DNA of 64,000 bases from Thermoplasmatota archaeon (GTDB taxonomy: Archaea; Thermoplasmatota; JAKEGO01), in NCBI GenBank assembly GCA_028279595.1, contig JANQNK010000004.1, forward strand, positions 128,001 through 192,000, written 5' to 3'. Numbering within the stretch: the first letter of the stretch is position 1; each line of letters starts with the position of its first letter. A model generated the notes under the pieces. It was not told where the DNA came from and did no database searches. It worked only from the letters and a program-made list of their open reading frames with translations. The translations under genes were made by a program, and so were the position numbers. Below are positions 40,621 through 51,702 of the stretch, piece by piece.

Positions 40621-42861
40621 TCAGAGATGCTTCGAGATTATCTCGTTCCAAGTCGGGCTTGGGCGCATGGCTATCGTGCACATCTCGTCGTCGGTCCGAT
40701 AGTAGCCGCCTAGCTCCTCCGGCTTGTCCTGGGCTTCCAGAAGCTCCTGCAGGATCTTATCCGCATTCGATTCCAGTTCCTCGGCCAGAGGCGTGAACTT
40801 CGCCTTCAGTTCCGCGTCAGCGTCCTGCTCGGCCATCTCCCTGGCCCAGTACATGGTCAGGTAGAACTGGCTGCCGCGATTGTCGAGCTCGTTCACGATC
40901 CGGGACGGTGAGCGGGCGTTGTTGAGGTATTGGCCGTTCGCCTTGTCCAGTGCGTCCGCGAGCACCTGCGCTCTCGGGTTGTCCGTGACGTTGGCGAGAT
41001 GTTCCAGGGATGCGGCCAGAGCCAGGAACTCACCGAGCGAATCCCATCTCAGGTGGCCCTCCTCCTGGAACTGCTGGACGTGCTTCGGTGCGGAGCCTCC
41101 AGCACCGGTCTCGAACAGTCCTCCGCCGTTCATCAACGGTACGATGGACAGCATCCTTGCGCTCGTTCCGACCTCGAGGATCGGGAACAGGTCGGTCAGA
41201 TAGTCCCTCAGCACGTTGCCGGTGACGGATATCGTATCCTCGCTCCGGGCCATCCTTTCGACCGAGAACTGTGTCGCAGAGATCGGGTCCATGATATGGA
41301 TCTCGAGTCCCTCGGTATCATGGTCTGGCAGGTACTGGTTCACCTTCTTGATGAGCTCGCGGTCGTGAGCCCTTTCCTCGTTCAGCCAGAAGACCGCCGG
41401 GAATCCGGACTGCCTCGACCTGCGGACCCCAAGACCGATCCAATCCTGAATCGGAAGGTCCTTGACCTGGCACATGCGGAAGATGTCGCCTTCCTCGATC
41501 GGACGCTCCAGTAGGACATTCCCGGCGGCTGAGACCACCTGGACCTTCCCGTCGCCGGGCGACAGGAACGTCTTGTCGTGGGAGCCGTACTCCTCGGCCT
41601 TCTGCGCCATGAGCCCGACGTTCTGGACGGTTCCCATGGTCACTGGGTCGAACGCGCCATGCTCCTTGCAGAAGTCCACCACGACCTTGTAAACTCCAGC
41701 GTAACTGCTGTCGGGTATGACGAACTTCGTGTCCTGGAGCTTGCCGTGCCGGTTCCACATCTGGCCCGAGGTGCGGAGCGCAGCGGGCATAGAGGCGTCT
41801 ATGATGATGTCGCTCGGGACATGTAGATTGGTTATTCCCTTGTCCGAGTTCACCATGGCCAGCTCGGGGCCGGCGTCTATCGCGGCTGCAATATCGGCCT
41901 TTATCTCCGCCTCCTTCTCGTCCGGTAGCGCAGCGATCTTCTGGTAGAGGGCGCCGAGCCCATTGTTCGGGCTGATCCCGAGCTCTTCGAAGGTCCCGGC
42001 GTGCTTCTCGAACACGTCCTTGAAGAAGACCTCGACCACGTGGCCGAAGATGATCGGGTCCGATACCTTCATCATGGTCGCCTTCAGGTGCACCGAGAAC
42101 AGGATGTCGTTTGCCTTCGCGTCGGCGATCTGTTCGCCTAAGAACTGCCGAAGAGCCTTCCTGCTGAACACGGAAGCATCGATTATCTCGCCGTCGATGA
42201 GGGCGAGGTTCTCCTTCAGCGGTTTCTGGGTGCCGTCGTTTCCAACGAACAGTATCGTCGAGTCGCCGGCATCCGCGGCCGTGACCGTGGTGGACACCTC
42301 GTTGTGTGCAAGGTCGCCGTGGTCCATGAAAGCCACGTGGCTCTTCGATTCCGGTGTCCACTCGCCCATCGGGTGGGGGTTCGCCTTGGCGTAGTTCTTG
42401 ACCGAGCCGGGTGCGCGCCTGTCGGAGTTGCCCATCCTCAGGACGGGGTTCACGGCACTGCCCTTGACCTTGTCATAACGCGCCTTGATCTCGCGGTCCT
42501 CGTCCGTCTTGGGATCCTCCGGGTAGTCGGGGAGGTCGAATCCCTTCCCCTGGAGCTCCTTGATCGCTGACGTCAACTGAGGTATCGACGCGCTGATGCA
42601 TGGAAGCTTGATTATATTCGCCTCCGGCCTGTTGACCAGCTCGCCCAGCTCGGCGAGGTCGTCGCTCACGAACTGCTCCGACGTCAGCCGCTCCGGGAAC
42701 TTCGCCGCCGTTCTTCCGGCGAGCGAGATGTCCCTGGTCTCTACCTTGACCCCCGCTGCGCCCGTGAATCCCTTCACTATCGGTAGGAAGGAATACGTTG
42801 CAAGTGCCGGCGCCTCGTCGACCTTCGTGTAGATTATCTTGCCTTCTATCTTATCGCCCAT
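40621..42861 (-). CDS. icd: Monomeric NADP-dependent isocitrate dehydrogenase
   Basis: 746 aa. Motifs [55 protein letters not shown] and [10 protein letters not shown]. Confidence 0.97.
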
Positions 42862-42895
42862 TTCGAATCTCTCCTTATGTATTGCTTCAGATCGT

Positions 42896-44743
42896 CTATT
42901 CGACCTTCTCCGGTTCGTCCGGCACGTCGTACAGGATGTCGTCCCACGGATGCCTGTAGAGCGGGGTCTTCAGCCTCTTCTGGTCGAAGTAGTGGCCCAT
43001 GAAGCCGATGGTCCGACCGATGATGAAGAAGGCGTTGAAGAAGCCCATGTCCACCATCTCCTTGATCTCCTCCTTGGAGTAGCCGAGGCTGATCAGGAGG
43101 TCCACGAAGCACACTCCGATGCAGCCGTCGACGTTCAGGATGAGGGTGTTCTTCTTCCTCGTGGTGATATCTTGGACGGACATCGCGTAATCCAGCGTCG
43201 GTGTGGACTTGAAGTGCTTCTTCGCGAAGTCGGCCATGATGTTCACGCGAAGGTCCGGGAACTCCACGCTGTGGATGCGGTGGCCGATACCCTGGATGTT
43301 CACGTTCTTCTTCTTCATGGCGGCTACGAAGTCCTTCGGGTCCATCTCGTTCTCGACCCCGTACGTGAAGTGCTCCGCGGCGCCGTTGACCGCGCCACCG
43401 AACCTCGGGCCTATGGTCACGATACCGCTGATGATCGACTCGATCAGACCCTTTCCGGCACGGGCGGTCACGATAGTGTTGTGCGCGCCAGAGACAGCCG
43501 GTCCGTGATCGGCGACGATCTGCAGCACGAGTTCGATGAACTCGGCCGCGTACGCCGGTATCTCCTTCTTGAACCAGAGGAGTCCGATCACTCCACCGAG
43601 GCCGATGTCCTTCTCGATCACCTTGTCTATGGGTATGCCGCAGTAGGTGTGTTGGTCGCCCTGCTCGTCGCAGATCGTGCTGATGAACGCTGTGGGTTTC
43701 CGCACCATTCCCTGGGACTTCGCGGCAGCGTAGTCCATCGGGACATGCGGAGGCGTCGGCTCGGCAGCGGGGCTTATGGTGCCGTCCGCAACGAGCTTGT
43801 CGTAGGTCTCCTTGATCTTCTCCGCGTAGTCATCGAACGACTCGGGCACGATGACACCAGCGGCCTTTAGCGCGGCGTTCTTCGCGTCAGCGGAGGTGTC
43901 CTCGCTATCGGACTTCGCTCCGGCGTGTCCGAACTGGACACCGGACGGAAGCATCTTGGCCACAGTGCCGGTGACCCACATCACGAGAGGCTTAGTCAGC
44001 TTGCCCTCGTTGATGGCGTCGATGATGTCATACTCCGACCTTCCTCCCAACTCGCCGAGCGAGACCATCATCTTGATGTTCGGGTTGGCCTCGTACCTCA
44101 GGAGATGGTCAAGCAGTGTCGAAGCCGGATAGACGTCGCCGCCGACCGCGATACCCTCGTAGATGCCGTCGGTGTTCCTTGAGACTATGTTGTATCCCTC
44201 GTTCGACAGACCGCCTGACACGGAGACGAAACCAACGGAGCCAGGCCGGTATAGCTTGGTGTCCTTGATGTTCTGTATCGTACCCGCGGCGTTGCCGATC
44301 TTGAAGGAGCCGGCCTTCAGCCCGCCGACGGTGGCGGGGCCGATTATCCACTTGCCCTTTTGCTTGGCGAGTGCCGCGATCTTCCTGACGTCCCTCTGGG
44401 GAACTCCCTCGGCGATCATTGCGATCGTCCTGATCTGGTCGGTCTCGAGGGCCTCCATCGTGGTCTCGGCGCAGGAGCGCTCGGACGCGAAGTTGACCAT
44501 GGTGTCGGCCTCTGGGTGCTTCGCCATGGCCTCTTCCAGTGTCTTGTACCTCGGGATCCTGACCTCCCTGGTCCCCCAGAACATCGTGTGGTAACCGCCG
44601 CCGGTGGGCGTGATGAAACCGACGACACTTGGAGTCTTGCGTCCGGAGAGGTAGTCGAAGTCGAGCATGCGCTGTCCGGCCCTGTTCTGGTTCCCGTAGA
44701 TGAACGCTGTCGTCTCGGGTGTGAAGAGTTCGTACCATTCCAT
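42896..44743 (-). CDS. aclA: ATP-citrate lyase large (alpha) subunit
   Basis: SucD-like CoA-binding/ligase domains (GPATVGG, QFGHAGA phospho-His) fused to a citryl-CoA lyase/citrate synthase domain ([29 protein letters not shown]). Confidence 0.95.
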
Positions 44744-50828: not shown

Positions 50829-50829
50829 G

Positions 50830-51702
50830 ATGGCCATACTGCTAACGGACGACACGAAGGCGATAGTCCAGGGCCTGGGAAAGGAGGGCCAGTTCCACAC
50901 CGAGAGGATGCTCGATTACGGGACGAAGCTCGTAGGCGGAGTACGCCCCGGCAAGGCTGGCGAGGACTGCCTCGGCCTGCCCGCGTTCAACACTGTGAAC
51001 GACGCCGTCGATGCGACCGGCGCGAATGCGTCGATCATCTTCGTCCCCGCGCGGTTCGCAAAGGACGCCGCCATCGAGGCCATCGACGCCGAACTGGACC
51101 TGGTGGTATTGATAACCGAGGGGATTCCGCCGATCGATATGATCAAGGTCAAGGACAAGCTGAAGCGGTCCGAGACCCACTTGATAGGACCCAACTGCCC
51201 CGGGATAATCACCCCTGGCGTCGGCAAGCTCGGTATCCTGCCCGTGGAGATCCATACACCCGGAGTCGCCGGGGTCATCTCGCGCTCGGGCACCCTGACC
51301 TACGAGGTCGCGGCCCAGCTGACGGCAGAGGGCATCGGACAGTCGACCTGTATGGGCATAGGCGGGGATCCGATAATCGGGACCAAGCACCGGGACGCAT
51401 TGGAGCTCTTCAACGACGACCCTGACACAGAGATCGTCATATTGATCGGAGAGATAGGAGGCACCGACGAGGAGCTCGCGGCCGAGTTCATCCGGAACCA
51501 CATGACGAAGCCAGTGGTCGCGTTCATCGCCGGAAGCACTGCGCCGCCAGGCAAGAGGATGGGCCACGCCGGAGCCATCATCGCCGGAGGCAAGGGCACT
51601 GCTGCAGAGAAGAAGGCTGCCTTGAGTGATGCTGGTGCAACGGTCTGCGATTCTCCTGCCGATGTCGGGGCAACCGCTAAGAAGGTCCTCGACGGTCTTT
51701 GA
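50830..51702 (+). CDS. sucD: Succinyl-CoA synthetase alpha subunit
   Basis: [20 protein letters not shown] and RMGHAGA. Confidence 0.97.

What the first reader, a model, noticed from the sequence alone, without database searches (positions are those of the whole stretch)
40621..51702. Archaeal ATP-citrate-lyase cluster: acn-aclB-aclA-monomeric icd with divergent sucCD
Seen: four tightly coupled genes (overlapping or abutting starts and stops) plus sucCD. Known: two-subunit ACL is the hallmark citrate-cleaving enzyme of the reductive TCA cycle; Chlorobium pairs it with a monomeric IDH that runs reductively; both enzymes are uncommon in archaea; and Desulfobacter postgatei uses ACL in the citrate-forming direction to conserve ATP. 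Inference: this archaeon may run an rTCA cycle, or an ACL-based oxidative/reversible cycle that replaces citrate synthase. Direction cannot be read from sequence.
Basis: partly seen in the sequence, partly recalled or inferred. Interest (0 to 1): 0.75.

Follow-up and report, generated by a model that had tools for sequence, protein, structure and literature searches.

The report
Archaeal ATP-citrate lyase TCA cluster
An uncultured Thermoplasmatota archaeon has a genuine operon for aconitase, ATP-citrate lyase and isocitrate dehydrogenase, and the same contig holds every other enzyme of a reverse citric-acid cycle while no citrate synthase was found; such operons are already known from many uncultured archaea, so this is an unusually complete example, not a new kind of system.

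Summary
The minus strand carries acn, aclB, aclA and a monomeric NADP-type icd as a tightly coupled operon. A four-RAM-domain protein lies upstream, and sucCD is transcribed divergently.

The contig is archaeal: it carries archaeal-type LeuRS, CDC48 and ThrRS, and the MAG has an archaeal 16S.

KorDABG, an Hdr-linked TfrA-type fumarate reductase, Mdh and FumAB lie 17-55 kb downstream on the same contig. PFOR, PycAB, PPDK and SdhAB lie on other contigs. I found no citrate synthase (Si- or Re-type), no 2-oxoglutarate dehydrogenase and no acetyl-CoA synthase.

In 201 sampled genomes of the phylum, 55 have ACL and 96 have a canonical citrate synthase. None has both.

The genome also has the gene set of a peptide fermenter: two IOR, two POR/VOR, four ACD-like genes and two GDH.

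My best reading is that ACL is the only citrate enzyme of a reductive or reversible TCA ring in an anaerobic mixotroph. Direction is not proven.

The operon type is known from ANME, Bathyarchaeia and other Thermoplasmatota. This scan already met it on other DNA in at least 23 genomes. I class it as a new member of a known kind, of moderate interest.

The parts
40552..40586 (-). Terminator-like element after icd: an 8-bp GC stem (GGCGCGGG / CCCGCGCC), a 6-nt loop, then a C-run and TTTT
   Evidence: Read directly from the sequence. Its function is inferred.
40621..42861 (-). icd: monomeric (type III) isocitrate dehydrogenase, predicted NADP(H)-specific
   Evidence: PF03971 1244 bits and TIGR00178 1227 bits. 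1038 bits to Azotobacter vinelandii IDH 1itw, with His589, Arg600 and Arg649 conserved.
42896..44743 (-). aclA: ATP-citrate lyase alpha subunit (CoA-binding, CoA-ligase and citryl-CoA-lyase module)
   Evidence: Pfam domains. 794 bits to Methanosaeta concilii ACLY (6hxi_B). The FGHAG histidine and the NVDGCIG aspartate are conserved.
44744..46039 (-). aclB: ATP-citrate lyase beta subunit (ATP-grasp and citrate-binding domains). The start is probably the ATG at 46030.
   Evidence: PF24948 253 bits and PF16114 290 bits. 535 bits to 6hxi_A, aligned from query residue 4.
46036..47988 (-). acn: 650-aa aconitate hydratase (PRK07229 type), preceded by AGGAGG
   Evidence: NF005558 930 bits, cut-off 612. 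The ribosome-binding site is seen.
48092..49447 (-). 451-aa protein of repeated Lrp/AsnC ligand-binding (RAM) domains with no HTH match; co-oriented, 103 nt upstream of acn
   Evidence: PF01037 50 bits. The two halves are 35% identical over 187 aa, E 2e-43. No hit in the 29 ACL loci of other genomes.
49448..49607 (.). 160-bp divergent intergenic region with two AT-rich TATA-like boxes (TATAAAAA 49488-49495; TTTATA 49506-49511)
   Evidence: Read directly from the sequence. The promoter role is inferred; the archaeal promoter was not modelled.
49608..50828 (+). sucC: ADP-forming succinate-CoA ligase beta subunit. The true start is probably about 18 codons downstream.
   Evidence: NF001913 557 bits, cut-off 370, aligned from residue 19.
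50821..51702 (+). sucD: succinate-CoA ligase alpha subunit
   Evidence: NF004230 437 bits, cut-off 336.

Best explanation
Shown: the operon (RAM protein)-acn-aclB-aclA-icd encodes a catalytically intact heteromeric ATP-citrate lyase of the archaeal/eukaryote-like type, an aconitase and an NADP-type monomeric IDH. Together they are the three-step link between 2-oxoglutarate + CO2 and acetyl-CoA + oxaloacetate. Shown: in this Thermoplasmatota MAG, ACL is the only citrate-forming or citrate-cleaving enzyme found. With sucCD, korDABG, an HdrBC-linked TfrA-type fumarate reductase, Mdh and FumAB, all on one contig within 55 kb, it closes a TCA ring made only of reversible or reductive-type enzymes. 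PFOR, PycAB and PPDK connect the ring to C3 metabolism. Inferred: net flux runs mostly in the citrate-cleaving (reductive) direction in an anaerobic peptide-fermenting mixotroph. 2-Oxoglutarate, from glutamate via GDH or from succinyl-CoA + CO2 via Kor, is reductively carboxylated. Citrate is then split into acetyl-CoA (for lipids, or for acetate + ATP via ACD) and oxaloacetate. Oxaloacetate goes through malate and fumarate to succinate, with the Hdr-linked fumarate reductase as electron sink and possibly as the exergonic arm that helps reduce ferredoxin for Kor. CO2 assimilation may be partial. Full autotrophy is possible but not shown.
For: The rest of the ring lies on contig C1. KorDABG is at C1:197664-200512 (alpha NF006412 541 bits, above cut-off 411; best hits of beta and delta are OGOR models). 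It is directly followed by a TfrA-like flavoprotein, an Fe-S protein, HdrB-like and HdrC-like genes, and is flanked by HdrA2-like genes. Mdh is at C1:216622-217563 (305 bits, cut-off 283). FumAB is at C1:222333-223789. Elsewhere are a NifJ-type PFOR (1897 bits), PycB + PycA (760 and 714 bits) and PPDK (1295 bits). Not found: a PF00285 hit other than AclA, an HMGL-like protein other than PycB, so no Re-citrate synthase, an E1_dh other than transketolase, and CdhC. In the phylum sample, 55 of 201 genomes have ACL, 96 of 201 have a canonical CS and 0 have both. The same interleaving of kor, tfr and hdr is described for bacterial rTCA clusters (PMC6315080). By established thermodynamics, thiol- or Hdr-linked fumarate reductases work towards succinate. 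Peptide-fermenter content: two IOR and two POR/VOR, four ACD-like genes and two GDH. This fits the published reading of ACL in Thermoplasmatota as a glutamate-to-acetyl-CoA route (PMC12220078).
Against: Direction cannot be read from sequence, and every enzyme of the ring is reversible in principle. A classical SdhAB pair also exists, so succinate oxidation is not excluded. The only hydrogenase found is a group-3b-like NAD(P)-linked type, which can work in either direction. The type V FBP aldolase/phosphatase was not found in this genome or its two closest relatives, and a crude motif screen gave no IMPase-type candidate. The MAG is 86% complete, so a citrate synthase could lie in the missing 14%. 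Kor substrate specificity rests on best-hit models, some below their cut-off.
Confidence: 0.5

Rival explanations
1. Full autotrophy. The ring works as a complete reductive TCA cycle fixing two CO2 per turn. PFOR and PycAB/PPDK carry carbon into biomass. Reductant comes from H2 or NAD(P)H through the Hdr-type electron-bifurcating complex encoded between the cycle genes.
For: Every rTCA enzyme is present, plus PFOR, PycAB and PPDK. No CS, OGDH or Wood-Ljungdahl ACS was found. The kor-tfr-hdr interleaving matches the clusters proposed for efficient rTCA in tubeworm symbionts (PMC6315080). A Thermoprofundales MAG with AclA was called a facultative hydrogenotrophic autotroph (PMC11287216).
Against: No archaeon has been shown to use the rTCA cycle (stated in 10.1101/2022.10.25.513756). 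The genome is rich in peptide and amino-acid catabolic genes. Only an NAD(P)-linked group-3b-like hydrogenase was found. FBP aldolase/phosphatase was not found.
Confidence: 0.2
2. Oxidative use. ACL runs in the citrate-forming, ATP-yielding direction in place of citrate synthase. This would either make 2-oxoglutarate for biosynthesis (acn-aclBA-icd as a self-sufficient module) or oxidise acetyl-CoA as in Desulfobacter postgatei.
For: ACL and canonical CS are mutually exclusive across the phylum sample, 0 of 55 against 96 of 146, as expected if ACL occupies the CS position. The operon groups exactly the three enzymes from oxaloacetate + acetyl-CoA to 2-oxoglutarate. The same reading was proposed for ANME-1 and ANME-2c (PMC9012536). 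Precedent: Moller et al. 1987, Arch Microbiol 148:202, listed in PMC12137691. SdhAB is present.
Against: With Kor, SucCD and a fumarate reductase present, 2-oxoglutarate can also be made reductively, so an oxidative branch is not needed. The Tfr/Hdr-type fumarate reductase beside Kor points the other way. No terminal electron acceptor system for complete acetyl-CoA oxidation was looked for. No SdhCD-like anchor lies next to SdhAB.
Confidence: 0.25
3. Artefact. The contig is a mis-binned bacterial fragment, or the cassette is a recent, unexpressed bacterial import.
For: AclB of two 'Acidimicrobiia' MAGs is sister to this clade. ACL phylogeny within the phylum is patchy: G001, of the same family, has another clade.
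Against: C1 carries archaeal LeuRS, CDC48 and archaeal ThrRS. Its tetranucleotide correlation with the 16S contig is 0.99. The tRNA sets of the contigs do not duplicate each other, with few exceptions. Estimated contamination is 0.2%. The nearest AclB is that of G002, the only other genome of the same order (100/99 support). All ORFs are intact, with ribosome-binding sites and conserved catalytic residues.
Confidence: 0.02

Closest known systems
Methanothrix (Methanosaeta) concilii heteromeric ATP-citrate lyase ACLY-A/B (PDB 6hxi, 6znw)
   Same: Two-subunit layout, full-length alignment (AclA 794 bits, AclB 535 bits), the GHAG phospho-histidine and the catalytic Asp of the citryl-CoA-lyase module. 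It scores almost as well to human ACLY (755 bits) and far better than to Chlorobium AclA (392 bits).
   Different: A different phylum and a different genomic setting. Here a monomeric icd follows aclA, and the whole ring lies on one contig.
acn-aclB-aclA(-icd) operons of uncultured archaea (ANME, PMC9012536; Ca. Penumbrarchaeia and other Thermoplasmatota, PMC12220078 and PMC11287216; Bathyarchaeia loci)
   Same: The same gene order in 18 of 24 related loci. icd follows aclA in Thermoplasmatota relatives (L041, L042, L061, G012, G014). The same unresolved question of direction applies.
   Different: ANME genomes lacked a complete ring (PMC9012536), and Penumbrarchaeia were described with a partial rTCA (PMC12220078). 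Here all steps are found and are clustered. The divergent sucCD and the RAM-repeat gene were not seen at the relatives' loci.
korABCD-tfrAB-flxABCD-hdrABC rTCA gene clusters of tubeworm symbionts and Thioflavicoccus (PMC6315080)
   Same: The 2-oxoglutarate:ferredoxin oxidoreductase genes lie next to thiol-type fumarate reductase and Hdr genes in the neighbourhood of ACL.
   Different: Those are Gammaproteobacteria that also have the Calvin cycle. Here the host is an archaeon, the Hdr set includes three roughly 1000-aa HdrA2-like proteins and a lipoate-protein ligase, and ACL is of the archaeal/eukaryote-like clade.
Classical rTCA of Chlorobium limicola (AclAB, PDB 6hxj)
   Same: Two-subunit ACL, OGOR, PFOR and fumarate reductase.
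   Different: AclA is only distantly similar (392 bits against 794 to the archaeal enzyme). No phototrophy genes were sought. The host carries a peptide-fermenter gene set.
Desulfobacter postgatei citric-acid cycle with ACL as ATP-yielding citrate synthase (Moller et al. 1987, listed in PMC12137691)
   Same: ACL in a genome without citrate synthase, together with OGOR.
   Different: That organism respires sulfate and oxidises acetate. No such respiration was examined here, and a thiol-type fumarate reductase sits by Kor.
Monomeric (type III) NADP-IDH: Azotobacter vinelandii 1itw; archaeal Methanococcoides methylutens IDH (cited in PMC8287583)
   Same: Full-length match of 1038 bits with conserved NADP determinants.
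   Different: Here it is encoded as the last gene of an ACL operon.

Membership tests
Two-subunit ATP-citrate lyase (AclA/AclB) | Beta subunit with an ACL-type ATP-grasp domain and a citrate-binding domain | tested here: met
   PF24948 253 bits (cut-off 83) and PF16114 290 bits. 535 bits to 6hxi_A.
Two-subunit ATP-citrate lyase (AclA/AclB) | Alpha subunit with CoA-binding and CoA-ligase domains fused to a citryl-CoA-lyase (citrate-synthase-like) module | tested here: met
   PF02629, PF00549 and PF00285 (positions 157-355) in one 615-aa ORF. End-to-end alignment to 6hxi_B.
Two-subunit ATP-citrate lyase (AclA/AclB) | Catalytic phospho-histidine (GHAG) and the catalytic Asp of the lyase module (the residue changed to Ala in 6znw) | tested here: met
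   VQFGHAGAK and NVDGCIG are both conserved in the alignment.
Two-subunit ATP-citrate lyase (AclA/AclB) | ATP- and CoA-dependent cleavage of citrate | not testable with these tools
   Needs an enzyme assay.
Reductive TCA cycle (ACL variant) | 2-Oxoglutarate:ferredoxin oxidoreductase | tested here: met
   KorDABG-like genes at C1:197664-200512. Alpha is above its cut-off (541 against 411). Best hits of beta and delta are OGOR models but below cut-off. Substrate is inferred.
Reductive TCA cycle (ACL variant) | Fumarate reductase | tested here: met
   A TfrA-like flavoprotein with Fe-S, HdrB-like and HdrC-like genes. SdhAB also lies on C10.
Reductive TCA cycle (ACL variant) | Pyruvate:ferredoxin oxidoreductase plus an anaplerotic and PEP-forming route | tested here: met
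   NifJ-type PFOR 1897 bits. PycB 760 bits and PycA 714 bits, adjacent. PPDK 1295 bits.
Reductive TCA cycle (ACL variant) | Remaining ring enzymes (Acn, Icd, SucCD, Fum, Mdh) | tested here: met
Reductive TCA cycle (ACL variant) | Net CO2 fixation, with gluconeogenesis to support growth on CO2 | tested here: inconclusive
   Type V FBPase was not found in G000, G001 or G002. Other FBPase classes were not searched. Flux is not testable here.
Reversed oxidative TCA (roTCA) | Citrate synthase used in reverse | tested here: not met
   No PF00285 hit other than AclA in the 86%-complete MAG. No HMGL-like Re-CS candidate.
Monomeric (type III) isocitrate dehydrogenase | A single chain of about 740 aa matching PF03971/TIGR00178 end to end | tested here: met
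   1244 and 1227 bits, positions 1-733 of 734.
Monomeric (type III) isocitrate dehydrogenase | NADP determinants (His589, Arg600, Arg649 of AvIDH; the equivalent set for 7Y1U is listed in PMC13147460) | tested here: met
   All three are conserved in the 1itw alignment. That these AvIDH residues are the determinants is from my own knowledge.

The most novel reading that the evidence does not exclude
This lineage is a true archaeal user of the reductive TCA cycle for CO2 fixation, something not yet shown for any archaeon. In this reading an Hdr-type flavin-based bifurcating complex, encoded between the cycle genes, couples exergonic fumarate reduction to ferredoxin reduction for 2-oxoglutarate synthase. 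The phylum-wide exclusion of citrate synthase by ACL would then mark a whole set of archaeal families with this metabolism.
Probability: 0.2. Interest if true: 0.75.

Novelty: new member of a known kind. Interest (0 to 1): 0.4.

Why it matters
Whether any archaeon runs the reductive TCA cycle is still open; a 2022 survey states that a complete rTCA is unknown in Archaea. This contig is among the cleanest genomic cases: every step, including the ferredoxin-dependent carboxylase and an Hdr-wired fumarate reductase, lies within 55 kb, and no citrate synthase is found. The strict ACL-or-citrate-synthase split across 201 Thermoplasmatota genomes gives a simple rule that can be tested. It also names the families in which labelling or enzyme work would decide whether ACL cleaves or makes citrate in archaea. 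Marine-sediment carbon budgets count these archaea as protein degraders, so their capacity to assimilate CO2 would change that accounting.

Tried and rejected
Mis-binning is rejected.

roTCA and Re-citrate synthase: no candidate gene.

Wood-Ljungdahl: no CdhC in this genome or its two closest relatives.

Calvin cycle: one RuBisCO-like gene scores best as form III and is below the cut-off. I did not search for PRK, so this is not settled, but form III usually serves nucleotide salvage.

OGDH/PDH: only transketolase hits E1_dh. Class II fumarase: the only Lyase_1 hit is PurB.

The RAM-repeat gene and the divergent sucCD as conserved parts of the cassette: neither was found at 29 related loci, so they are particular to this genome.

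IMPase-type FBPase: a motif screen gave two ORFs with no Pfam match.

Checking contig membership through the tRNA-linked repeat gave only two weak hits and was not used.

The AclB tree has no Chlorobium, Nitrospira or eukaryote rows and is rooted at the midpoint only, so I claim no donor or direction of transfer.

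
Full report
WHAT IS THERE

On the minus strand, four genes run head to tail:
- acn, 46036-47988: NF005558 930 bits, cut-off 612.
- aclB, 44744-46039: ACL-type ATP-grasp PF24948 and citrate-binding PF16114.
- aclA, 42896-44743: CoA-binding, CoA-ligase and a C-terminal citrate-synthase-like module.
- icd, 40621-42861: monomeric IDH, PF03971 1244 bits, TIGR00178 1227 bits.

The acn stop overlaps the aclB GTG. Alignment to the solved archaeal enzyme starts at residue 4, so the ATG at 46030, five bases after the acn stop, is the likelier start. 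The aclB stop abuts the aclA ATG. A 34-nt spacer with AAGGAG precedes icd. After icd comes an 8-bp GC hairpin followed by TTTT.

Upstream of acn, after 103 nt that contain a hairpin and an AGGAGG, lies a 451-aa gene. It matches only the Lrp/AsnC ligand-binding (RAM) domain, and its two halves are 35% identical.

A 160-bp region with two AT-rich TATA-like boxes separates that gene from sucC and sucD, which are transcribed divergently and overlap by 8 nt.

IS IT AN ARCHAEON?

The window is G000:C1:128001-192000 of a 2.29-Mb, 21-contig MAG, 86% complete with 0.2% contamination.
- The MAG's 16S lies on contig C18. It scores 1526 bits with the archaeal model and 1115 with the bacterial one.
- Tetranucleotide frequencies of C1 correlate at 0.99 with C18.
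- The tRNA sets of the contigs complement each other.
- C1 itself encodes an archaeal-type leucyl-tRNA synthetase (TIGR00395 1046 bits; bacterial model 122), a CDC48 ATPase (967 bits) and an archaeal-type threonyl-tRNA synthetase.
- The closest AclA sequences are in 'uncultured Thermoplasmatales archaeon' MAGs, at 74-78% identity.
- In an AclB tree the window pairs with G002, the only other genome of its order (100/99 support).

THE ENZYME

AclA scores 794 bits against the Methanosaeta concilii ACLY structure (6hxi/6znw), 755 against human ACLY and only 392 against Chlorobium limicola AclA. AclB behaves the same way. Two catalytic residues are conserved: the phospho-histidine in FGHAG, and the aspartate of the lyase module, which is the residue replaced by alanine in 6znw.

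Icd aligns end to end with the Azotobacter vinelandii monomeric IDH (1038 bits). It keeps His589, Arg600 and Arg649, the residues that bind the 2'-phosphate of NADP. That these residues are the determinants is from my own knowledge; an equivalent set for 7Y1U is listed in PMC13147460.

THE REST OF THE CYCLE

On the same contig:
- korD-korA-korB-korG at C1:197664-200512. Alpha scores 541 bits against a cut-off of 411. The best hits of beta and delta are 2-oxoglutarate:ferredoxin oxidoreductase models.
- Directly after them come a TfrA-like fumarate reductase flavoprotein, an Fe-S protein, HdrB-like and HdrC-like genes. All are flanked by roughly 1000-aa HdrA2-like genes.
- Malate dehydrogenase at C1:216622-217563.
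- A two-subunit class I fumarase at C1:222333-223789.

Every step of the ring therefore lies between 168.6 and 223.8 kb of one contig.

On other contigs are:
- a NifJ-type pyruvate:ferredoxin oxidoreductase (1897 bits), two four-subunit POR/VOR sets and two indolepyruvate oxidoreductases;
- adjacent PycA and PycB with a divergent PEPCK-like gene;
- PPDK;
- a classical SdhA-SdhB pair with no anchor gene beside it;
- a second fumarase alpha subunit;
- a four-subunit group-3b-like NAD(P)-linked [NiFe] hydrogenase.

Not found:
- any PF00285 match other than AclA;
- any HMGL-like protein other than PycB, so no Re-citrate synthase and no isopropylmalate synthase;
- any 2-oxoacid dehydrogenase E1;
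- acetyl-CoA synthase CdhC;
- type V FBP aldolase/phosphatase.

One RuBisCO-like gene scores best as form III.

HOW COMMON IS THIS?

The ACL citrate-binding domain occurs in 15 of 41 close and more distant relatives. It occurs in 55 of 201 genomes drawn evenly from the phylum at 80% completeness or more, concentrated in certain families.

In the same 201 genomes, 96 have a full-length citrate synthase scoring 275 bits or more. None of the 55 ACL genomes does. The four classes are 0, 55, 96 and 50. Related genomes are not independent, so the Fisher value overstates the case, but the split holds across many families.

Monomeric IDH was found in 6 of 41 genomes, all of them ACL-positive. It lies next to aclA in G012 and G014 and in three named Thermoplasmatales MAGs.

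The order acn-aclB-aclA recurs in 18 of the 24 related loci, from Bathyarchaeia, a Thermoproteota SAG, Methanosarcinales, Halobacteria, two other Thermoplasmatales MAGs and two 'Acidimicrobiia' MAGs. Two more Thermoplasmatota genomes (G012, G014) show it.

In the AclB tree the Thermoplasmatota sequences fall into at least four separate clades. G001, the only other member of the window's family, has a different clade. The cassette has therefore moved between lineages. With a midpoint root only, I claim no donor.

WHAT IT MOST LIKELY DOES

Shown: ACL is intact and is the only citrate enzyme found. The ring is complete and contains only reversible or reductive-type enzymes.

Inferred: the direction of flux. 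Three observations favour a reductive or bidirectional ring.
1. A thiol/Hdr-type fumarate reductase sits next to Kor. This arrangement is described for bacterial rTCA clusters and was proposed to feed electrons to both enzymes (PMC6315080). By established thermodynamics such an enzyme works towards succinate.
2. Ferredoxin-dependent Kor and PFOR are present together with PycAB and PPDK.
3. Citrate synthase and OGDH are absent.

The genome also carries the gene set of a peptide fermenter: two IOR, two POR/VOR, four ADP-forming acyl-CoA synthetase-like genes and two glutamate dehydrogenases. This is the setting in which ACL in Thermoplasmatota has been read as part of a route from glutamate to acetyl-CoA (PMC12220078, which cites PMC9123169).

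My best reading (0.5) is net citrate cleavage in an anaerobic mixotroph, with fumarate reduction as electron sink. Full autotrophy (0.2) needs a gluconeogenic FBPase and a low-potential reductant source that I did not find. The oxidative reading (0.25) has ACL making citrate and ATP, as proposed for ANME (PMC9012536) and shown for Desulfobacter postgatei (Moller et al. 1987, listed in PMC12137691). It fits the ACL-or-citrate-synthase exclusion equally well and is not excluded.

COMPARISON WITH WHAT IS KNOWN

- The enzyme is a member of the archaeal/eukaryote-like ACL family that has been solved structurally.
- The operon type is published for ANME, Penumbrarchaeia and Thermoprofundales.
- A Thermoprofundales MAG with AclA has already been called an rTCA autotroph (PMC11287216).
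- A 2022 survey still states that a complete rTCA is unknown in any archaeon (10.1101/2022.10.25.513756).
- This scan has met the same operon on other DNA in at least 23 genomes.
- An earlier agent described the adjacent Tfr-Hdr module as part of a reverse citric-acid-cycle cluster.

What this case adds:
- the whole-genome check;
- the physical clustering of all steps on one archaeal contig;
- the monomeric NADP-IDH as last gene of the operon;
- the phylum-wide exclusion of citrate synthase.

VERDICT

This is a new member of a known kind, of moderate interest (0.4).

LIMITS

- The MAG is 86% complete.
- The tree lacks bacterial and eukaryotic reference ACLs.

Noticed in passing
window 48092-49447 (-): A 451-aa protein made of repeated Lrp/AsnC ligand-binding (RAM) domains with no HTH match. 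Its halves are 35% identical over 187 aa. It lies between the divergent promoter and acn and gave no hit in 29 related ACL loci. It may be a metabolite sensor for the operon.
   Followed up: partly
L048 8726-11842 and L060 8723-11845 ('uncultured Acidimicrobiia bacterium' MAG contigs): These contigs carry acn-aclB-aclA with AclA 67-68% identical to the window. In the AclB tree they are sister (100/97) to the clade of G000, G002, G012 and L040. This is either a transfer between domains or mis-binned contigs.
   Followed up: partly
L082 17040-19998 (G001:C20): The only other genome of the window's family has an ACL of a different clade (AclA 61% identical, grouping with families f14, f5 and f22). 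The cassette was therefore exchanged within the family.
   Followed up: partly
L084 10611-19472 (G014:C5): A co-oriented six-gene block, acn-aclB-aclA-icd-fumA-fumB, in another Thermoplasmatota family.
   Followed up: no
G141:C1:482862-484034, G133:C1:157141-158313, G180:C57:765-1937: A second citrate-synthase paralogue with exactly one in-frame TAG in three genomes of one genus of the phylum. This could be stop-codon recoding (pyrrolysine?) or a shared pseudogene.
   Followed up: no
for example G014:C16:7067-7651 and G164:C6:534548-535546: ACL-positive families also carry either short (257-280 aa) citryl-CoA-lyase-like ORFs or 700-840-aa proteins with a weak full-length citrate-synthase match (131-146 bits). 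Neither is present in the window's genome.
   Followed up: no
C1:220543-221778 (L025 9543-10778) and window 61851-63095 (-): There are two LarA-family genes. The first scores best as a nickel-dependent malate racemase (329 bits, below cut-off) and lies directly upstream of fumAB. A GlcD-like FAD oxidase lies near mdh.
   Followed up: no
C21:513-1721 (L095): A RuBisCO-like gene that scores best as form III (404 bits, cut-off 497). It is also present in G001 and G002. PRK was not searched.
   Followed up: partly
C10:42192-44711 (L023 3629-6147): A classical SdhA-SdhB pair with no SdhC/D-type anchor beside it. It is followed by a C_GCAxxG_C_C redox protein, an EamA transporter and a glyoxalase-fold protein.
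   Followed up: partly
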